Positions 11,472 to 48,667 of a stretch of DNA of 64,000 bases are shown piece after piece (positions within the stretch are counted from its first letter, which is position 1; each line of letters starts with the position of its first letter). Source of the stretch: Escherichia coli. Its GTDB lineage: Bacteria > Pseudomonadota > Gammaproteobacteria > Enterobacterales > Enterobacteriaceae. The notes under the pieces were generated by a model. The model had not been told where the DNA came from. It searched no databases and worked only from the letters and a program-made list of their open reading frames with translations. Where the stretch lies: NCBI RefSeq assembly GCF_003334385.1, contig NZ_QOWN01000001.1; one strand, written 5' to 3'. Both the position numbers and the translations under genes were made by a program.

Positions 11472-11572
11472 ACATCGTAGCCGATGAGGACGCGCCTGAT
11501 GGGTGTTCTGGCTACCTGACCTGTCCATTGTGGAAGGTCTTACATTCTCGCTGATTTCAGGAGCTATTGATT

Positions 11573-11986
11573 ATGCGTAACTTTGATTTATCCCCGCTTT
11601 ACCGTTCTGCTATTGGATTTGACCGTTTGTTTAACCACTTAGAAAACAACCAGAGCCAGAGTAATGGCGGCTACCCTCCGTATAACGTTGAACTGGTAGA
11701 CGAAAACCATTACCGCATTGCTATCGCTGTGGCTGGTTTTGCTGAGAGCGAACTGGAAATTACCGCCCAGGATAATCTGCTGGTGGTGAAAGGTGCTCAC
11801 GCCGACGAACAAAAAGAGCGCACCTATCTGTACCAGGGCATCGCTGAACGCAACTTTGAACGCAAATTCCAGTTAGCTGAGAACATTCATGTTCGTGGTG
11901 CTAACCTGGTAAATGGTTTGCTGTATATCGATCTCGAACGCGTGATTCCGGAAGCGAAAAAACCGCGCCGTATCGAAATCAACTAA
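11573..11986 (+). CDS. ibpA: Small heat-shock protein IbpA (alpha-crystallin family)
   Basis: ORF 11567-11986; start [12 protein letters not shown], 137 aa. Confidence 0.95.
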
Positions 11987-25694: not shown

Positions 25695-25802
25695 TAATAT
25701 TTGGACAAAACGCAAACTGTGATCGATACTCAACTATGCACTAAATACGTCAAAATTCGTGCCGAAATTGCGCGTTCTGCGCGGAACACGTATACTTTCA
25801 GT

Positions 25803-25877
25803 GTTGACATAATACAGTGTGCTTTGCGGTTACCAGCCGCAGGCGACTGACGAAACCTCGCTCCGGCGGGGTTTTTT
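25803..25877 (+). ncRNA. istR: Small antisense RNA IstR-1 (antitoxin to tisB); 5' end approximate
   Basis: About 75 nt ending in hairpin plus U-run (cctcgctccggcggggtttttt); its 5' segment repeats the tisAB UTR target site; IstR-2 would start further upstream near the LexA box. Confidence 0.6.
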
Positions 25878-40857: not shown

Positions 40858-42042
40858 CTAAATATCTTTAATAAACAGCAGGCAAATCATCGCAATACCC
40901 AACATCCCTATCGCCAGCCAGAACAACGCATGGTAGCTCCAGATTTCAACCATAATTCCGTCAACAGAGCCGGCGATAATCCAGCCGACGCGTGAAGTAT
41001 TTGCATATAACGTTGTCGCAGAGCCTATTTTTTCAGGCATCAAGTCCTGAAAATAAAGCATGCCGATACCACAGAGAATACCAAGGAAGATGGCATTAAG
41101 AATTTGCAATTCCAGCTCAACCGCCGGAGTCGTCGCCATGAGTACGCTGGCGTAAAAACACATTCCACTCACGATAGCAATGAGCATTAATAGTCGCTTG
41201 CCAATACGTTTCATGTAATAGCCTGCGATTAACATCATCGGAATTTCCAGACCGGCAGCGATACCAATCATTTCTCCAGCCAGTTTATCGGTTAGATGCA
41301 GTTCATCAATAATAAATAGCGGCATATTTATCATGTAGAGATTATTCGCCGCCCACATCATTGAACAGACCACAAAAAGTAGCCGCGTATCCCGCTTCCT
41401 GTGGGTGGAGGGTAAAATTTCTACGGGTTGGGTAACGACAGGAATATTTCTTTGTATTGATGGCAAAAACAACCAGACTATCAGTCCGCAAACAACAAAT
41501 GCGATGGCAGCGGTGAGATACATCACTTTAAAACTAAATCCCATTGCCAGTTCATAAGCGAGCGGTGGCCCGATAACCCAGGCAAGCGAGATCTGAGCAC
41601 GTAAAAATGTACTGAACATGACCGTCTCACGGCCTGTTCTGTCGGCGTGTTCACGGGCGAGGGCGAACATTTGCGGGTTTGCGGTGGAAGCAAAACTACT
41701 CAGAAGTACGCCCGTTGAGAGGAGAATGAAGTAGTTGCGATTCCACGCAAAAAGCGTGCAGGCCAGCACTCCAAATAAGCAACATAGCAGAATCAGTAAC
41801 TTACGGTCGCCTTGTTTATCGGAGTGCCTTGCCAGAAATTGACTGACCAGAATTCCCATAATAGCGCTACCGGTGAAGAAAAAACCTACCATTATAGGAC
41901 GGGCTTTCAGTTCATCTGCGAGGAATATACTTAGGGTAGGAGTCTGAAGAGCGCCCGCAATACCCGTCAGAAAGGCGACAAGTAAAAATGCCGCGGCAGT
42001 GAGATCAAGTATTTTTGATGGAGTGGTAGCCGTTTTTTGCAT
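40858..42042 (-). CDS. setC: Sugar efflux transporter SetC (MFS)
   Basis: 394 aa MFS; in E. coli this gene sits immediately downstream of selC. Confidence 0.9.
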   Translation of the reverse strand: MQKTATTPSKILDLTAAAFLLVAFLTGIAGALQTPTLSIFLADELKARPIMVGFFFTGSAIMGILVSQFLARHSDKQGDRKLLILLCCLFGVLACTLFAWNRNYFILLSTGVLLSSFASTANPQMFALAREHADRTGRETVMFSTFLRAQISLAWVIGPPLAYELAMGFSFKVMYLTAAIAFVVCGLIVWLFLPSIQRNIPVVTQPVEILPSTHRKRDTRLLFVVCSMMWAANNLYMINMPLFIIDELHLTDKLAGEMIGIAAGLEIPMMLIAGYYMKRIGKRLLMLIAIVSGMCFYASVLMATTPAVELELQILNAIFLGILCGIGMLYFQDLMPEKIGSATTLYANTSRVGWIIAGSVDGIMVEIWSYHALFWLAIGMLGIAMICLLFIKDI

Positions 42043-42678
42043 TCTTCTGAATCACCGGGCGAAAAAATATAACTGAGTTACAAATAAGTACCAGTCGAAT
42101 GAGTATTGTATTAAGAATTTTTGAGTATCGCTGATACAACCAGAAAGCAATGCTAGCGCAATATTATAGGGCCAGCAATTGAGATTATTAGTAAAAGCAT
42201 GTTAAGAATTAATTACCGAATTTATATATTAATTATAGTAAGGCAATGAGCTATTTTTGATAGTAAAAATAAAACAAGTTGATTTGATATATTAAATGAA
42301 CAAATTAATCTTGATGGCAGTCTGATTATTGGTGAAGTTTATAGTCAGTTTTTTTCGCCAGCGGTTAAAGAAATAGAATAGTCGTATAAAAAAGGGTGTT
42401 CTGGGGCGAGTAAAACAACATCTTCACCTTAATGGCGATACAGTTGGCTGAGAGTCAGCAGGGGGGCAAATCACCTGCAAATAAACACGGCGCATACTGG
42501 CGTGAATATCGCGGATGCGTTCGAGGACAGAAGAACCGACAGGCGGATTCTTCAGCCGCTCATCGTCCATCACAAAACCTTAGACCAGGTATTCCTGAAG
42601 CCGATTGAATATTGAGCAGTAGAAAATATCTGGATTGACAGTATTACAAGGGGTTGGAGAACGTCAGGAGAGGCATTT

Positions 42679-42702
42679 TGGCGGAAGATCACAGGAGTCG
42701 AA
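42679..42702 (-). other. selC: 3'-terminal 24 nt of tRNA-Sec (selC): attachment-site core marking the island boundary; the rest of the tRNA is not in the window
   Basis: tggcggaagatcacaggagtcgaa is the reverse complement of the recalled selC 3' end (TTCGACTCCTGTGATCTTCCGCCA); the sequence then diverges into AT-rich foreign DNA. Confidence 0.8.
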
Positions 42703-42834
42703 TATAAGTATTAATGCATTGATCTTAAATAATTTGTATGTGTTGGATAAATGAGTAACCCCCATAAGAACCCCCAAATGATTTTGCATGAAGGAATGAA
42801 GCTAAAATACATAATTGAATCAATTCTTAGTACT

Positions 42835-43680
42835 CTATTGTGAAGGTAACATTTCCGGATAGTGTCTGGCTATAATATCATTTAGCCGATCAACCAGTTC
42901 TGGTTTCCTGAACGTGATGTGCGCGGAGCCCTTCTTAAAGTATCTGATGCTGAACATTTCATCTTCATAGCACTCTTTACCCTGAACAGACCGGATGTGC
43001 TCATCCAGATGAATAGTGATGTTTTCCCGGTTGTCGGGGATCGGTTTGCCGCTGAACAGATGCAGCATTCTTTACAGGTCGGCAAGTCGATCGGCCTGTG
43101 GGCCGTTGTTCAGATGAAATCCCCATCTGTCCCACCTCACCAGATTGTTGACGATAATTTTACTGCCAAATTTACAGGGTGAATTGTTTTTGTAATTCCA
43201 GCTCAGTCCCCTGAAAACATTAATTACCCCTCGCTCAAACACCTCATCCTTATTCTGGTGCAGTTGTTCAAATGTGCTCAGAATGTTCGCTTCACTGATT
43301 TCCGGAAAATTATCGTACTCCAGTGACCGGTACCATGTATCACGGGCCTGCGCATCCATTAATGACAGCATCCCGGAACGTTGCATCAGGTCACGCCAGA
43401 TTTCGCGGTCAAGGTTGCGGGTGATGGCTTTCATTGCTGTTTCAGGTTTCTCCATGAGCCAGCATCCGCAGCGAAAATTCTGTTTCATCGCCCAGTCCCG
43501 TGCGCTTTTACCACCAATGCTTTTTGTCAGTACTGAGATTTCAGTCAGTTGCCGGATAAGCGTTTCGGTTTGTTGCAGTGCTGCATTCCGTACCGTCACA
43601 ACGTGTCGGATACTGGTGGAGCAGATAACGTCCGTATTCCCGGTGACCACTTCCGGATGGGAGATTGTGATGTTTGACAT
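42835..43680 (-). pseudogene. Conserved island protein (possibly DUF4942 family) interrupted by an in-frame TAA
   Basis: ORFs 43072-43680 and 42835-43068 are in the same frame, separated only by TAA (43072-43074) and one codon; together about 281 codons. Confidence 0.6.
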
Positions 43681-43764
43681 TATCGGTTTCCCTTTTGGTT
43701 TATAAACGAAAACGCCAGCCGTATTCAGGCTGGCGTCAGTGGAATGAAGTCTGGTGAGTAAGGC

Positions 43765-44007
43765 TCACCGGTTCTGTTGCAGAAGCTGCAGTTGGCGCAG
43801 GGTATGGATATCCTCCCTCGCCTGTTCAATGCAGGGCAGCAGTGCTGCCGAATCCGTTTTATCCTCATCGTTGTCAAAGATAATTCCCGATTCGCAGTCG
43901 ATATTGTCCTGCAGCCACGCAATCAGAATATCCAGTGCTGTTTCCGTGGTTAATGATTTCATGTTGTTCCTGGTTACCAGTTGAAAGTGGGTAAACCCGG
44001 CAGGCAT
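43765..44007 (-). CDS. Small hypothetical protein (CP4-type island)
   Basis: 80-aa ORF downstream of the toxin module; acidic and coding-like; no function assignable. Confidence 0.4.
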   Translation of the reverse strand: MPAGFTHFQLVTRNNMKSLTTETALDILIAWLQDNIDCESGIIFDNDEDKTDSAALLPCIEQAREDIHTLRQLQLLQQNR

Positions 44008-44462
44008 TCAGCGCTGGCATCCAGATGAATGAGACTGACGCCATAACGTCGGGTAAGTGTGACAACCAGACAACGGAACGTTTTTGACAGGCCCAGGCGC
44101 TTAAGCCGCAGAACCGGGTATGACCACGCATCGGTACGTAACAGATAGCCGCTGCCTGTAAAATGAATCCATTCTGATTCGCCGTCGTCATTAGTCTGGT
44201 GTGACAGCGAGTACAGCCAGGCGTTGTCCGTTTCCGTGATATGTGCGGTGCTGCAACGTATGCAGGTAAGGGTTGTTAACGGTGGTGGTGTACTGGTTGC
44301 GTGTTGGTCGGATTTATCGACCACGCGGAGTAAATAACCGTTTTCAGAGACCTTGTTAATCAGTTCACTGAGATTAACACCATCGACGTCAACGACAATG
44401 CGCCCCATGTTCAGTGCCTGCACGTTAACGCTGTCGGCTTCCAGCGTCAGGGCCAGTTTCAT
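43974..44462 (-). CDS. Hypothetical protein downstream of CbtA (YeeW-like position)
   Basis: 162 aa; start overlaps the cbtA-like stop (ATGA); positional analogue of yeeW in CP4-44. Confidence 0.5.
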
Positions 44463-44836
44463 TGTTTTGCCTCCGGATGCTTGCCCTGGGTAATGTTATT
44501 TACCATTCTGTAATTGTTCCGGGTCATCAGGCCGGTTGCCCTGCGAGCCCGGAGAATATCAATGCTGTTGATTAACTGCGACGGGGCTCCTGCGCTGAAT
44601 CCCGGCTGGTCGGTACGTACCAGCGCGTATTTTTCAACGAGAAAGTTCACCGCGTCACACAGTGAAATCCCTGCCTCAATATGCTGCTCAATCACACGTT
44701 CATCAGCGAACGGTGTGTCATTCAGCGTGAGGCCATAGTGCTGGTCCAGCAGTCGGGTGAGCAGTGTCTGCCAGATGGTGACGGGAGACGGGCAGCCCGA
44801 TGCCTCCCGTACGTGAGTGTCGGGTAATGTATTCAT
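44459..44836 (-). CDS. CbtA/YeeV/YkfI-family type IV toxin
   Basis: From MNTLPDTH, 125 aa; strong similarity to recalled YeeV ([52 protein letters not shown]). Confidence 0.85.
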
Positions 44837-44882
44837 CTTAAGTTCTCTGTAACAGGTGGTGATAAAGGGGAGATATCCGGGG

Positions 44883-45320
44883 TTATACGGTGATTGCGGG
44901 CGCTGCCGGTGTCGGATAAACAGCCAGATAAACGTAACCACAACTGCCAAGGGTATCGGCTTCGCAGGTCAGCCCTTTCGCATACAGTGTGATGGTATGC
45001 TGATGGCGGGGATTCAGTTCACCGCTGGTGAGCATGAGTTCCAGTTGTTTCATCAGCAGCGGAAAGGCCTGGTCCAGGTGGTATGCATCCGCGTCGCTGA
45101 ACCGGCCTCTGATACCGGCACGGTCGGCAAGGTAATGCAACCGGTTACCCTCCTGCACCAGACGTGCCCCGAAACAGGGCGTCACGGTGCAGGGCAGCCC
45201 CCACCAGGGGCGGTCGTGATTGTCGTCGGGATGCGTTGTCCCGGGCAGTGTGTCTGACACGATAAAGTCCTCACAGAAATCAGTTAAGAATGGTTCGATG
45301 GTGGCGATAATTCGGCTCAT
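44883..45320 (-). CDS. CbeA/YeeU/YafW-family antitoxin
   Basis: Contains [49 protein letters not shown]; the true start may be the internal GTG (VSDTLPG), giving about 124 aa. Confidence 0.85.
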
Positions 45321-45338
45321 CAGAATGCCCTTCCTGAC

Positions 45339-45560
45339 TCAGTTCAGGGTGACGCTCATCAGCCGGACATACGGGCCAAAACTGTCTTTACGGCGTTCTG
45401 CAAACACAGCCAGCACACCGGGAATATCCTGCACTTCACGACCGGTATACGCTTCAGTGCTGCCGTGCCAGCGGTATTTGCCGGTACAGAACGGAAAAAG
45501 ACGGGATGCCGGATGTTGTTGGTGAATACGCATGGCTTCACCACGGGTGATGATTTTCAT
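45339..45560 (-). CDS. DUF987-family protein (YeeT/YkfH-like)
   Basis: 73 aa MKIITRGEAMRIHQQHPASRLFPFCTGKYRWHGS...; canonical position upstream of the TA pair. Confidence 0.8.
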   Translation of the reverse strand: MKIITRGEAMRIHQQHPASRLFPFCTGKYRWHGSTEAYTGREVQDIPGVLAVFAERRKDSFGPYVRLMSVTLN

Positions 45561-45628
45561 AGTGTGATACCTCTGAAGACAGAAGATAAAAGCGAAAACT
45601 GGTATGATGTGGTTGTAACGGTGACGGG

Positions 45629-46105
45629 TTAAAGCAGACCGTGTTCCGCAAAGGAGAAAACCTGGCTGCCACCGACTATCAGATGGTCCGGCACCCGGAT
45701 ATCCACCAGGCCCAGTGCCTGTACCAGACGTTCCGTGATAAGGCGGTCTGCCTTGCTGGGTGTGACTTCACCGGACGGGTGATTGTGTGCCAGCACCACA
45801 GCAGCGGCATTGTGATACAGGGCGCGTTTAATCACTTCCCGGGGATGGACTTCCGTGCGGTTGATGGTGCCGGTGAAGAGGGTTTCACCGGCAATCAGCT
45901 TATTCTGGTTGTTCAGATACAGCACCCGGAATTCTTCACGCTCCAGTCCCGCCATGTTCAGAATCAGCCATTCCCGTGCCGCACGGGTGGAGGTGAAGGC
46001 CACACCGGGTTCATGAAGATGGCGGTCCAGGGTTTTCAGGGCCCGCTGAATGAGGCTGCGCTCGCCGGGCGTCATCTCTCCTGGCAGAAAGGAAAGCTGT
46101 TGCAT
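45629..46105 (-). CDS. RadC-like JAB-domain protein (YeeS/YkfG/YfjY-like)
   Basis: 158 aa with JAMM-like motif (HNHPSGEVTPSKAD). Confidence 0.85.
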   Translation of the reverse strand: MQQLSFLPGEMTPGERSLIQRALKTLDRHLHEPGVAFTSTRAAREWLILNMAGLEREEFRVLYLNNQNKLIAGETLFTGTINRTEVHPREVIKRALYHNAAAVVLAHNHPSGEVTPSKADRLITERLVQALGLVDIRVPDHLIVGGSQVFSFAEHGLL

Positions 46106-46119
46106 TGTTCCAGCCCCTT

Positions 46120-46605
46120 TCAGTCAATGATGCGCATAATGGCGTTGCATTCCGGATGCTGCAGGGCGTAGTCCCGCAGACGGTAATAATGAACCGTCAT
46201 GGCATAACACTCCGTGCGACAGGCATGATGACTGTACGTCATCAGACAGGCAGCAATGCCGGCGGCTTCCGGGCTCATTTCAGCACGGTTACCGTTCATG
46301 GCATTGAACAGTACCCATGTCTCGTCATCATCGTCATCCGGTTCGGGTGCCATAAATGCCCCGCCGTTGTTCAGGGTGTACAGATTCCAGATACCACCGC
46401 AGTAGTCTTCGCAAAGATGGTCCATCCAGCCGAAGACACGGGGTTCCAGGGTCACCCACTGTGGAATGAGGCCAAAATGCTGCGGCCAGAAGCTGATGCG
46501 CTGTTCATGAGGAACGAGAGTGGCAACCAGTTGAGGCTGGTCATTCTCTGAAGCTGTGACTACGGAAGCAGAAAGTGTACAGGTGTTCTGAGAAACAGTT
46601 TTCAT
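46120..46605 (-). CDS. Antirestriction protein (ArdB/KlcA family; YfjX/YafX-like)
   Basis: 161 aa, acidic stretch (EPDDDDDE); conserved position in CP4-type islands. Confidence 0.75.
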   Translation of the reverse strand: MKTVSQNTCTLSASVVTASENDQPQLVATLVPHEQRISFWPQHFGLIPQWVTLEPRVFGWMDHLCEDYCGGIWNLYTLNNGGAFMAPEPDDDDDETWVLFNAMNGNRAEMSPEAAGIAACLMTYSHHACRTECYAMTVHYYRLRDYALQHPECNAIMRIID

Positions 46606-46695
46606 GAGTGAAATCCTTATAAAACAAATAAATGCAGGGTTTTCGGGGAGCAGGGGGTAGGGGAGCCTGAATCACGTCTTCAGGGATGTGCTGCA

Positions 46696-47514
46696 TCAGC
46701 GCATGTTCTCCAGCAGCGTTTCTGTCATTACCCACAATGCGCGATTGAGCTTAATGTCCGTGTCGATGCTGTGAATGGCACGGGTGTGGATACGTTTTCC
46801 TTTAGCGCTGCGACCGGAAATCCCGCCTTTCAGCATATTCTCCTGGATGGTCTGATATGCGCTCCACAGGTCCTTACCGTAATCCTCCCGGCGTCGCGGC
46901 GTCAGAATGTCGGCGGTGGTGACGGGCTGATGTTCGTCACCATAACGGTAAGTCAGTGCCGCCTGTGCCAGCGCCTGGCGTGCCGGTGGCGGCAGAATCA
47001 GCGACTGCATGGCATCACGCTTTTCCTCAATCCGGTCAAACACGCCCACCACCTTGTAAGCCCCTTCAATGACTCTGTCCACCACATTTCCCCGGTGCGG
47101 AACACGCACTTCCCCCAGAGACTGACCACAGACGCATCCGTTCTGGCAGACGAACCTGAAGTAACCCGGCAGCATCTGGTAGCTGGAGGTACCGTCATGG
47201 GAGTTCAGCAGGATGATTTCAGGGACATGTTGTCCGTTTATCTCCCCGTCACGGCGCAGACGCAGCATGTGTTTGGTGTATCCCCGGCGGCCCGGGTCGC
47301 GCACACGGGTCTGGCAGGCGAAGAATGGCTGAAAACCTTCCCGCTGCAGGCTTTCCAGCACTGTGATGGTGGGGATCCAGGTATAGTTCTCGCTTCTGGA
47401 TGTGTGCTTATCTTCCCCGAATACGCTGGGGACGACCTGCATCAGTTCTTCACGAGTTAAGGGACGATCACGGCGTATCTGATTTACATGACCAAAACGA
47501 CTGGCTAATTGCAT
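46696..47514 (-). CDS. DUF932-family protein (YafZ/YfjQ-like)
   Basis: 272 aa; family and position typical of CP4-like elements. Confidence 0.75.
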   Translation of the reverse strand: MQLASRFGHVNQIRRDRPLTREELMQVVPSVFGEDKHTSRSENYTWIPTITVLESLQREGFQPFFACQTRVRDPGRRGYTKHMLRLRRDGEINGQHVPEIILLNSHDGTSSYQMLPGYFRFVCQNGCVCGQSLGEVRVPHRGNVVDRVIEGAYKVVGVFDRIEEKRDAMQSLILPPPARQALAQAALTYRYGDEHQPVTTADILTPRRREDYGKDLWSAYQTIQENMLKGGISGRSAKGKRIHTRAIHSIDTDIKLNRALWVMTETLLENMR

Positions 47515-47603
47515 ACTTTGCTCCTTATGAATGAGTTAGCGGTATAAATGAAAAGGCCGCGTCTCCCGGAGAAGACGCGGCCTGATGGATGAAATGAAGA
47601 CGT

Positions 47604-47837
47604 TTATTGCCTGAGAATTCCCTCACTGGCGAGATATGGATTTAGCTGTTTTCCGGCATCAGGTTCAAAATTCCAGCACCGCCAGCGTAGCTGCCCTTCA
47701 GCATTGTGGATAACCAGCCGGAAATGCGTTCCCTGATCATCTTCAATAAGCACATTGCGGTAAGCTGTTGTGACAGCCATCGCCTGTTCGCGTGAGAAAG
47801 GGCCTTCGGGCAATAAAACAGGGTGACAGTCCGACAT
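47604..47837 (-). CDS. DUF905-family protein (YkfF-like)
   Basis: 77 aa; motif [12 protein letters not shown]...WNFEP. Confidence 0.7.
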
Positions 47838-47842
47838 ACCGG

Positions 47843-48520
47843 CTATTTTCCGATAAATTCAACGCTGGCACCGGTGGCATTACCGTCAGCACCAACCGTG
47901 ACGGTCACTTTGTCGTACGCACGGTCTTCAGGATTGAACACTTCAAACTCAACCTTATTGCCTTTTACTTCGTAAGAGCCAAAATCAGCGGTTTCTGTTG
48001 TTTCCTCGTCATATTCCCGGGCGTATGCCTGCCGGGCAGCCTGCAGGACGGAATCTTTATTAATGGCGGGTGTCTGTTTCGGGGAAAAACCAGCAAGTGA
48101 TGTGACAAATTTCGGACAGACCTTCAGCATATCACCGCGGGTGAATTCCATTCGTACACCAAATGCCTGTAAAACGGACACATCACGCTCTGCTATGGAG
48201 TGAACGGCTTTTTTGACCATTTCCGGCGCCTGTCCGATTTCCACCTCAACAGCCCTGAATCCCGTCTGCTGATTACACATTTGTGATGTGGGGATCAGGT
48301 TACCGTTAATACTGATACGGCTGCCCAGGAGCGTCTGTACACCATTCGGGCATCCCTGCATCAGGCCGGTAATACCAATCGTGCCATTTTTCAGCATTAC
48401 CAGCGCCTGACCATCTTCCGTCATGGTCTGACACCAGCCGTTTTTGACAGCCCAGTTGCCGGCGGAGGCGGAGAATGATGCCACAGTGAATAGCAGGGGA
48501 AAAAGAGCTCTGGTATTCAT
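47843..48520 (-). CDS. Secreted/lipoprotein-like protein (YafY/YfjS-like)
   Basis: ORF 47843-48625; likely start [21 protein letters not shown] (signal peptide), about 225 aa. Confidence 0.6.
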
Positions 48521-48667
48521 GACTGACCTCTGAAATGAACGTACGGTGTTATTGATAATGATGGAAGGTATGCAGTGACTGTTCAGGGAATGACGTAGCC
48601 GTATATTTAGTTTTCTGTTCAACATATTGTCTCCATACCTGTCGGGACGGCTTTGGCAGGCCGGCGA

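What the first reader, a model, noticed from the sequence alone, without database searches (positions are those of the whole stretch)
42679..42702. Island boundary at the 3' core of tRNA-Sec (selC)
Next to setC, only the last 24 nt of selC (including CCA) are present. From 42703 onward the sequence is AT-rich and carries CP4-type, IS and cargo genes. This is the signature of a tyrosine-integrase island that integrated into selC, leaving the duplicated att core on the setC side and reconstituting the tRNA at the far end. The island is at least 21 kb and continues past the window, so its integrase, its other att site and its full extent are not visible.
Basis: partly seen in the sequence, partly recalled or inferred. 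Interest (0 to 1): 0.6.

Follow-up and report, generated by a model that had tools for sequence, protein, structure and literature searches.

The report
Far end of a selC genomic island
The 24 bases are a leftover copy of the end of the selenocysteine tRNA gene (selC), marking one edge of a large virulence-gene island inserted there; this is a common and already published kind of junction in E. coli.

Summary

- **The 24-mer.** Window 42679-42702 (minus strand) is an exact, unique copy of the last 24 nt of tRNA-Sec, CCA included. The window contains no tRNA gene.
- **The junction.** Strains with an empty selC site match the window up to exactly 42702. Some are 100.0% identical over the preceding 24.7 kb.
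- **The island.** From 42703 the DNA is 99.8% identical to a ~50 kb selC island of strain UPEC132. That island ends with a 394-aa P4/CP4-type tyrosine integrase next to an intact selC, then yicJ.
- **The island terminus.** 42703-42834 is non-coding. It carries a tandem motif (AACCCCCATAAGAACCCCCAAAT) that is invariant across diverged islands and recurs in the integrase-side arm. These are probably integrase arm sites.
- **Prior publication.** The 24-bp selC repeat and these GGGGG repeats were reported by Saile et al. 2018.
- **Frequency.** 881 of 5,426 complete E. coli genomes carry this junction type.
The island is a GC mosaic, not uniformly AT-rich; the first 7.6 kb of genes are 52% GC. The cargo is collinear with the pheV island of APEC O1, and only the two ends are selC-specific.
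- **Not testable.** This genome's own integrase and intact selC lie outside the window.

The parts
40858..42042 (-). setC (sugar efflux transporter), the core gene on the chromosomal side of the junction
   Evidence: 394-aa ORF. Annotated setC at the homologous position in 7FA, AMSCJX03 and KE58.
42439..42600 (-). rhuM pseudogene remnant in the 38% GC spacer between setC and the selC fragment. It belongs to the chromosomal flank, not to the island.
   Evidence: RefSeq annotation of the identical sequence in empty-site strains, transferred by offset. Spacer GC is 38.1%.
42679..42702 (-). Orphan copy of the last 24 nt of selC (T-arm 3' half, acceptor 3' strand and CCA). This is the integrase-distal att core of the island.
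   Evidence: Exact and unique match. Identical to nt 72-95 of tRNA-Sec in L001 and L004. Empty-site genomes align up to 42702 and no further.
42703..42834 (.). Non-coding island terminus (att arm), 28.8% GC
   Evidence: No ORF of 60 aa or more. GC. Conserved in 881 of 5,426 E. coli genomes as part of the same junction type.
42757..42779 (+). Tandem repeat AACCCCCATAAGAACCCCCAAAT (two ACCCCCA units 12 nt apart); candidate arm-type integrase-binding sites
   Evidence: Invariant in 7 junctions whose surrounding arm differs at many positions; the same loci showed 86-100% identity over the 211-nt junction query. The ACCCCC hexamer occurs 4 times within 116 nt of the integrase-side arm in UPEC132 and AMSCJX03, out of only 9-10 copies per 50 kb. 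The same repeats are published for GIselC17584/1 and EPI-I (PMC6174562).
42703..42851 (.). The only selC-island-specific sequence at this end. From 42852 onward the DNA is shared with pheV islands.
   Evidence: APEC O1, S88 and ATCC 11775 pheV-island matches start at query position 203, which is window 42852.
42835..43680 (-). DUF4942 gene inactivated by an internal stop codon at 43069-43071
   Evidence: Translation shows one internal stop. Annotated as a pseudogene in UPEC132.
43765..50435 (-). CP4/'yee'-type module: DUF957, DUF5983 (YeeW-like), CbtA toxin, CbeA antitoxin, DUF987 (YeeT), RadC/JAB (YeeS), antirestriction protein, DUF932, DUF905, a hypothetical protein, a WYL-type HTH regulator and a YeeP-like GTPase
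   Evidence: RefSeq annotation of the 99.8% identical UPEC132 DNA. Pfam families on identical proteins. RadC, GTPase and WYL hits.
53968..54708 (+). Inovirus Gp2 / YagK-YfjJ family protein, a typical island backbone gene
   Evidence: Annotation; phrog_25019 hit.
55482..57530 (+). ireA, a TonB-dependent siderophore receptor (virulence cargo)
   Evidence: 682-aa ORF. Annotated ireA in UPEC132 and APEC O1 at the homologous position.
57710..60137 (.). IS256-family pseudogene (57710-58886, minus strand) and an IS3-family element (58924-60137, plus strand) with its frameshift pseudoknot
   Evidence: Annotation. Rfam ALIL pseudoknot at 59205-59321, 120.9 bits.
60296..61756 (+). OLD-family ATP-dependent nuclease whose match lacks the N-terminal ~138 positions of the profile; it lies directly after the IS3 element in 37% GC DNA
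   Evidence: PADLOC Old model, E=1e-49, matching profile positions 139-523 of 578.
62730..63962 (+). PAPS-reductase-like protein that begins the ibr module of this island type. The island continues past the end of the window.
   Evidence: Annotated as phosphoadenosine phosphosulfate reductase, followed by a frameshifted IbrB-like gene. phrog_2302 hit. PMC11537424 names an ibr module in the homologous GI-pheV; equating this gene with IbrA is my own inference.

Best explanation
Window 42679-42702 is the integrase-distal att copy of a large mosaic genomic or pathogenicity island sitting in the 3' end of selC.

Mechanism: a P4/CP4-type tyrosine integrase recombined a circular island with the chromosomal selC gene. 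The island's attP carried a copy of the last 24 nt of selC, flanked by arm-type sites. Strand exchange inside the 24-bp identity left two copies of that sequence. One completes selC, so tRNA-Sec stays intact, and the integrase gene follows it. The other is the orphan 24-mer seen here, still joined to the original downstream DNA (rhuM remnant and setC). The adjacent 132-bp non-coding island terminus, with its two ACCCCCA units, is the matching att arm.

The visible 21.3 kb of the island carries the CP4/yee module, ireA, IS256 and IS3 elements, a truncated OLD nuclease and the ibr module. It is the distal part of a ~50 kb ireA / pgt / papGII / tia type island. The cargo of that island is shared with the pheV island of APEC O1, and only the two integration ends are selC-specific.

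Shown directly: the duplicated core, the exact junction, the conserved arm repeats, and the integrase plus intact selC at the far end in the closest relatives. Inferred: that this genome has the same far end, that the repeats bind the integrase, and that the island could still excise.
For: - The 24-mer is exact and unique, with 0 expected by chance, and equals the 3' end of annotated tRNA-Sec.
- Empty-site strains align to exactly 42702. KE58 and NCTC9041 are 100.0% identical over 18000-42702, and KE58's site was checked and is empty: tRNA-Sec directly followed by yicJ.
- The island DNA is 99.8% identical to UPEC132, where it ends in TPR gene, integrase, intact selC, yicJ.
- AMSCJX03 has an identical junction and setC flank, and a far-end integrase 391/394 identical.
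- The integrase has Arm-DNA-bind_3, Phage_int_M and Phage_integrase domains. It matches NF007246 and solved CP4-like and CPS-53 integrase domains.
- The arm motif is clustered on both arms and invariant across diverged junctions.
- Literature: a 24-bp selC direct repeat and the same GGGGG repeats (PMC6174562); papGII islands integrated at selC (PMC7686366); the tia/pap/pgt/ireA/ibr/yee module set (PMC11537424).
Against: - The integrase, the second att copy and the intact selC of this genome lie outside the window and were not seen.
- No complete RefSeq E. coli genome combines this setC flank with this cargo; the best coverage is 92%. The far end is therefore inferred from relatives.
- Several cargo genes are decayed: the DUF4942 internal stop, the frameshifted IS256 and the truncated OLD nuclease. 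The island may no longer be mobile.
- The cargo could have been swapped into an older resident selC island by homologous recombination. In that case the junction would pre-date the cargo.
Confidence: 0.9

Rival explanations
1. The junction is old and the cargo is newer. A resident selC island with the same ends, like that of AMSCJX03 or BL21-type strains, had its interior replaced by the ireA/pap cargo. This happened by homologous recombination through the shared CP4/yee module and the integrase-side module, not by a fresh site-specific integration.
For: - The selC-specific end is only 149 bp (42703-42851), and everything beyond it is shared with pheV islands.
- AMSCJX03 has a 100% identical 211-nt junction and a 99.9% identical flank with entirely different cargo.
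- The yee module is common to many islands (PMC11537424).
Against: - Strains with a flank 100.0% identical to the window have an empty site, which fits a recent de novo insertion.
- UPEC132 carries the same terminus plus cargo at 99.8% identity in a different chromosomal background that lacks setC. This suggests the whole island moved as a unit.
Confidence: 0.12
2. The 24-mer is a fossil edge of an immobilised or truncated island. In this genome the far end (integrase and/or the 5' part of selC) has been lost or rearranged, so the fragment no longer acts as an att site.
For: - Cargo decay is visible in the window.
- Related islands show recurrent 3-4 nt deletions inside their orphan att copy (C41(DE3), UPEC132, 729_021014_1_4), so these islands do become fixed.
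- No recombination directionality factor gene is annotated next to the integrase in UPEC132.
Against: - In the window the 24-mer is perfect and the arm repeats are intact.
- Both relatives examined to the far end keep a full-length integrase and an intact selC.
Confidence: 0.25
3. The match is a chance or assembly artefact: a fortuitous 24-nt similarity or a chimeric join, not a biological junction.
For: None found.
Against: - Zero matches are expected by chance.
- The same junction is present in 881 of 5,426 independent complete genomes and in independent GenBank and metagenome assemblies.
Confidence: 0.01

Closest known systems
selC-associated genomic islands with CP4/P4-type integrases (GIselC17584/1, EPI-I/AGI-3, SHI-2, LPA, Tia-PAI, PAI I536, LEE site)
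   Same: - Same target: the 3' end of selC, between yicJ and setC/yicL.
- Same 24-bp direct repeat and the same GGGGG-containing repeats near both ends (PMC6174562).
- Same type of integrase and a TPR gene at the tRNA side in the relatives.
- Mosaic content with IS elements (PMC7545054).
   Different: The cargo differs. Here it is ireA, ibr and an OLD nuclease, plus pgt, papGII and tia in the nearest relative, rather than LEE, aerobactin, hemolysin or carbohydrate genes.
PAI I APEC-O1 / the ireA-pap-pgt-tia type of GI-pheV
   Same: 46.7 kb of the UPEC132 selC island is collinear with the APEC O1 pheV island at 98-99.4% identity. In the window this covers everything from 42852 on. The module list (tia, pap, pgt, ireA, ibr, yee) matches PMC11537424.
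   Different: The integration module differs. APEC O1 has a 420-aa pheV integrase and sits beside tRNA-Phe. The selC version has a 394-aa integrase, a TPR gene and a 149-bp selC-type terminus.
papGII-containing pathogenicity islands of invasive UPEC (Biggel et al. 2020, PMC7686366)
   Same: That paper reports selC among the tRNA sites used by papGII+ islands, alongside the far more frequent pheV and pheU sites, and lists ireA and tia among their genes. The nearest relative of the window's island carries papG-II.
   Different: The pap operon, if present in this genome, lies beyond the window. The chromosomal background here is K-12-like.
Satellite phage P4 / cryptic prophage CP4-57 integration
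   Same: Same integrase architecture and the same logic: attP carries the 3' end of a tRNA gene, so the tRNA is reconstituted after insertion (plus established knowledge of P4-family integrases).
   Different: PHROGs searches of 10 in-window island proteins returned no phage structural or replication category. The content is virulence, defence and toxin-antitoxin cargo, so this is an island and not a prophage.

Membership tests
tRNA-gene-integrated genomic island (P4/CP4-type tyrosine integrase, selC site) | An island boundary marked by a direct repeat identical to the 3' end of the target tRNA gene | tested here: met
   The 24/24 match is unique in the window and equals nt 72-95 of tRNA-Sec.
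tRNA-gene-integrated genomic island (P4/CP4-type tyrosine integrase, selC site) | Synteny with island-free strains breaks exactly at the repeat | tested here: met
   Empty-site genomes match up to 42702 only. KE58 is 100.0% identical up to the junction and has selC directly followed by yicJ.
tRNA-gene-integrated genomic island (P4/CP4-type tyrosine integrase, selC site) | A tyrosine integrase gene next to the intact tRNA gene at the other end of the island | not testable with these tools
   This lies outside the window, and the source genome was not found. The feature is met in the closest relatives UPEC132 and AMSCJX03.
tRNA-gene-integrated genomic island (P4/CP4-type tyrosine integrase, selC site) | Repeated arm-type sequences flanking the core on both att arms | tested here: met
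   ACCCCC units lie at 42758 and 42770. Four lie within 116 nt of the integrase-side arm in the relatives. The block is invariant in 7 diverged junctions. Actual binding by the integrase has not been tested.
tRNA-gene-integrated genomic island (P4/CP4-type tyrosine integrase, selC site) | Composition and gene content differ from the core genome, with mobility genes and variable presence among strains | tested here: met
   GC is 46.5% against 51.8%, in a mosaic pattern. IS256 and IS3 elements are present. The junction type is present in 881 of 5,426 genomes.
tRNA-gene-integrated genomic island (P4/CP4-type tyrosine integrase, selC site) | Integrase-dependent excision to a circular form | not testable with these tools
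   This needs PCR or long-read data from the strain.
ireA/pgt/papGII/tia pathogenicity island (PAI I APEC-O1 type) | The ireA, ibr and yee modules in the published order | tested here: met
   Window 42852-64000 is 99.3% identical to the APEC O1 island. The modules are named in PMC11537424.
ireA/pgt/papGII/tia pathogenicity island (PAI I APEC-O1 type) | The pap (papGII), pgt and tia modules | not testable with these tools
   These lie beyond window position 64000. They are present in UPEC132.
ireA/pgt/papGII/tia pathogenicity island (PAI I APEC-O1 type) | Integration at pheV with a pheV-type intP4 | tested here: not met
   The boundary here is a selC fragment. The relatives use a different 394-aa integrase at selC.
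P4-like satellite or cryptic prophage | Phage replication, capsid-modifying or structural genes | tested here: not met
   PHROGs hits for the 10 in-window island proteins searched are of unknown function or moron category only. Annotation of the full relative island lists none.

The most novel reading that the evidence does not exclude
The window may catch an ExPEC-type virulence island (ireA, and probably papGII and tia) soon after it entered a K-12-like commensal-type chromosome. Three points fit this reading. The flank is 100.0% identical to strains with an empty site. The orphan 24-bp att copy and the arm repeats are undamaged, whereas several relatives carry 3-4 nt deletions. The flank-plus-cargo combination is absent from 5,426 complete RefSeq genomes. 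If so, this would be a still-mobile selC version of a pathogenicity island that is usually fixed at pheV.
Probability: 0.15. Interest if true: 0.3.

Novelty: already known. Interest (0 to 1): 0.1.

Why it matters
It correctly marks one edge of horizontally acquired DNA, so genes to the right of 42702 (ireA, toxin-antitoxin, OLD nuclease, ibr) should be annotated as island cargo. It also predicts what lies past the end of the window. Beyond that it adds little. selC is a textbook integration hotspot, and the 24-bp repeat and the flanking GGGGG repeats are published. The only mildly useful points are these:

- The island is a clear case of one cargo carried with two alternative integration modules (selC versus pheV).
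- This copy has an undamaged att site in a K-12-like chromosomal background.

Tried and rejected
- An Rfam E-value scan of 41500-44000 did not report the 24-nt fragment. It is too short for the tRNA-Sec model, and only chance hits appeared.
- Two scans of the species-representative genome collection were run for the junction plus arm pattern and for the arm repeat alone. They gave nothing, or chance hits in Hellea and Cyclobacterium. No evidence of this att arm outside E. coli was obtained.
- I tried to find the source genome so as to read past 64000. No complete RefSeq genome has this flank plus this cargo.
- An exact-protein look-up of the truncated DUF4942 product found 7 places. One of them (OZ039764.1) has setC next to the same island end, but it is only 97.9% identical and has a different upstream core.
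- I looked for homology beyond the 24-bp core between the setC-side flank and the integrase-side arm. About 13 of the next 23 nt match by my own count from the alignment, followed by noise. This was not pursued.
- The chance or artefact explanation was rejected.
- Schmidt et al. 2001 (PMC100065) could not be read.

Full report
**Observation.** The reverse complement of window 42679-42702 reads TTCGACTCCTGTGATCTTCCGCCA. At up to 3 mismatches this 24-mer occurs once in the 64 kb, against zero expected in 100 dinucleotide-preserving shuffles. In a K-12-like strain (7FA, locus L001), RefSeq and ARAGORN both place tRNA-Sec at L001 4880-4974 on the minus strand. The window's megablast match to that strain stops at L001 4903, so it covers exactly the last 24 nt of the tRNA, CCA included. 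ARAGORN finds no tRNA anywhere in the window, and Rfam at gathering thresholds finds no tRNA family. setC is the 394-aa ORF at 40858-42042 on the minus strand.

**The junction.** Thousands of E. coli genomes with an unoccupied site align with the window through setC, a rhuM pseudogene remnant and the 24-mer, and stop at 42702. Several phylogroup-A-like strains (KE58, NCTC9041 and others) are 100.0% identical to window 18000-42702. In KE58 the tRNA-Sec gene is intact and directly followed by yicJ/yicI. A four-way alignment was made of the K-12-like attB, the window junction and both ends of the UPEC132 island. It shows that identity between the two island-flanking copies is exactly the 24 nt from TTCGA to CCA. 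Beyond the CCA, only about 13 of the next 23 nt match by my count.

**What lies to the right.** Window 42669-64000 is 99.8% identical to the chromosome of UPEC132 and three similar strains. Transferring the RefSeq annotation gives the following:

- a DUF4942 gene with an internal stop at 43069-43071 (confirmed by translation);
- a CP4/'yee' module at 43765-50435: DUF957, DUF5983, CbtA/CbeA, DUF987, RadC, antirestriction protein, DUF932, DUF905, a WYL-type regulator and a YeeP-like GTPase;
- an inovirus-Gp2/YfjJ-like gene;
- ireA at 55482-57530;
- a frameshifted IS256 and an IS3 element, whose frameshift pseudoknot Rfam detects at 59205-59321;
- an OLD-family nuclease whose match lacks the first ~138 profile positions (PADLOC);
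- the ibr module, which runs off the end of the window.

The 132-bp terminus is 28.8% GC and 60138-62729 is 36.9%, but the 7.6-kb CP4-like module is 52.0%. The in-window island averages 46.5% against 51.8% for the core.

**The far end, seen in relatives.** In UPEC132 the island continues through pgtABCP, a complete papGII operon, tia, a phosphoethanolamine transferase gene and a TPR gene. It then reaches a 394-aa tyrosine recombinase, which lies 299 bp from an intact tRNA-Sec, followed by yicJ and yicI. The total length is about 50 kb.

AMSCJX03 shares the window's setC flank (99.9%) and has a 100% identical 211-nt junction. It carries a 35.6-kb island with quite different cargo (Ag43, an interrupted BREX system, a glycosidase locus). 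It has the same far end: TPR gene, an integrase 391/394 identical to UPEC132's, and intact selC.

The integrase has the P4/CP4 architecture of Arm-DNA-bind_3, Phage_int_M and Phage_integrase domains. It matches NCBIfam NF007246 and the solved domains of CP4-like and CPS-53 integrases. The predicted layout is thus met wherever the whole island can be read: an orphan core on the setC side, and a reconstituted tRNA plus integrase at the yicJ side.

**The att arm.** The 132-bp non-coding terminus (42703-42834) contains AACCCCCATAAGAACCCCCAAAT, two ACCCCCA units 12 nt apart. The hexamer ACCCCC is rare, at 9-11 copies per 50-64 kb on both strands. Four copies nevertheless lie within 116 nt of the integrase-selC intergenic arm in both UPEC132 and AMSCJX03, including another tandem pair with 12-nt spacing. 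Seven selC junctions were aligned whose loci had shown 86-100% identity over the 211-nt junction query. The 23-nt block is invariant among them while the neighbouring arm varies. I read these as arm-type binding sites for the integrase's N-terminal domain, which is inference. They are not new. Saile et al. 2018 list the same two repeats (TTTGGGGGTTCTTATGGGGGT and TTTGGGGGTACTTTAGGGGGT) near the two ends of GIselC17584/1 and of EPI-I. They also state that selC insertions end with a 24-bp direct repeat (PMC6174562).

The same alignment shows that the orphan core is perfect in the window and in three other strains. It carries a 3-nt deletion in C41(DE3) and a 4-nt deletion in UPEC132 and in a poultry isolate.

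**Mosaic nature.** From window 42852 onward the sequence is also 99.2-99.3% identical to about a hundred genomes (APEC O1, S88, ATCC 11775 and others). In APEC O1, the one of these examined, the segment lies in the pheV island next to the kps capsule genes. A blastn comparison shows 46.7 kb of the UPEC132 selC island (record 43104-89768) to be collinear with the APEC O1 pheV island at 98-99.4% identity. The differences are IS insertions and a gap of about 440 bp at the start of the pap operon. Only the two ends differ. The selC version has the 149-bp terminus and a 3.3-kb TPR-integrase segment. The pheV version has a 420-aa integrase next to tRNA-Phe.

The module set (tia, pap, pgt, ireA, ibr, yee) is described for one class of GI-pheV (PMC11537424). 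selC is among the documented integration sites for papGII islands, alongside the far more frequent pheV and pheU sites (PMC7686366). The island is therefore one cargo carried with an alternative integration module, an arrangement already recognised in the literature.

**Frequency and distribution.** 881 of 5,426 complete E. coli genomes carry this junction type, with at least 80% of a 211-nt query spanning it. BL21-derived C41(DE3) is among them. Scans of one genome per bacterial species found nothing relevant outside E. coli. No complete RefSeq genome has this exact flank plus this cargo. A GenBank assembly (OZ039764.1) has the same setC / 24-mer / island arrangement at 97.9% identity but a different upstream core. 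The source genome was not identified, so its own integrase and intact selC remain unseen.

**Mechanism and rivals.**

- **Best explanation (0.9): integration by a P4/CP4-type tyrosine integrase.** The integrase acts between an attP carrying the selC 3' end and the chromosomal selC. This duplicates the 24-bp core and leaves the orphan copy attached to the original downstream DNA.
- **Cargo replacement.** It cannot be decided here whether the present cargo arrived by that event or replaced the interior of an older resident selC island by homologous recombination. The 100% identical empty-site relatives, and the presence of the same terminus plus cargo in a different background (UPEC132, which lacks setC), favour movement of the island as a unit.
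- **Loss of mobility.** It is also open whether the island is still mobile. The att copy and arm sites are intact, but several cargo genes are decayed.
- **Chance or assembly artefact.** This is excluded.

**Verdict.** The feature is a standard, published kind of boundary at a textbook integration hotspot. Novelty is 'already known' and interest is low.

Noticed in passing
window 42439-42600 (spacer 42043-42678): The 'native' DNA between setC and selC is 38% GC and holds a rhuM pseudogene, including in K-12-like strains with an empty site. Other strains have an intact 'virulence RhuM family protein' gene there. From my own knowledge, rhuM is also a gene of Salmonella SPI-3, which sits at selC. 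The so-called empty site may therefore itself be the remnant of a much older selC island.
   Followed up: partly
L003 ~2930-2960 (UPEC132), L011 (C41(DE3)), L015 (729_021014_1_4); the equivalent of window 42683-42687: The orphan selC fragment carries 3- or 4-nt deletions (GGA or GGAA within TGGCGGAAGATC) in several lineages, but is perfect in the window and three other strains. These may be recurrent immobilising lesions of the distal att site.
   Followed up: partly
window 42852-64000; L003/L004 versus L005/L010: The whole cargo (46.7 kb in UPEC132) is collinear with and 98-99.4% identical to the pheV island of APEC O1. Only the integrase/att ends are exchanged between the selC and pheV versions.
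   Followed up: yes
window 60296-61756 and 61941-62594: An OLD-family nuclease matches the PADLOC Old model only from profile position 139 on, directly downstream of the IS3 element. A 217-aa ORF with no family match follows it, all in 37% GC DNA. This may be an IS-disrupted defence gene pair.
   Followed up: partly
window 48668-49348: The 226-aa 'HTH regulator' of the CP4-like module matches WYL-domain models of PADLOC (E=2e-17).
   Followed up: no
window 43069-43071: A single internal stop codon splits the DUF4942 gene, the first gene of the island. The same truncated 202-aa product occurs in many assemblies, indexed in 128 blocks of the collection.
   Followed up: partly
L003 1998-2495 (UPEC132): UPEC132-type strains lack setC and the rhuM remnant. 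They have an unrelated 165-aa hypothetical gene between yicL and the selC fragment, and only about 13 nt past the CCA end are shared with the window.
   Followed up: partly
window 25748-25877, 11507-11579 and 1333-1375: Rfam finds istR (the antitoxin RNA of the tisB locus), a ROSE_2 thermoregulator element and the sRNA ES036 in the core part of the window. These are ordinary core-genome features.
   Followed up: no
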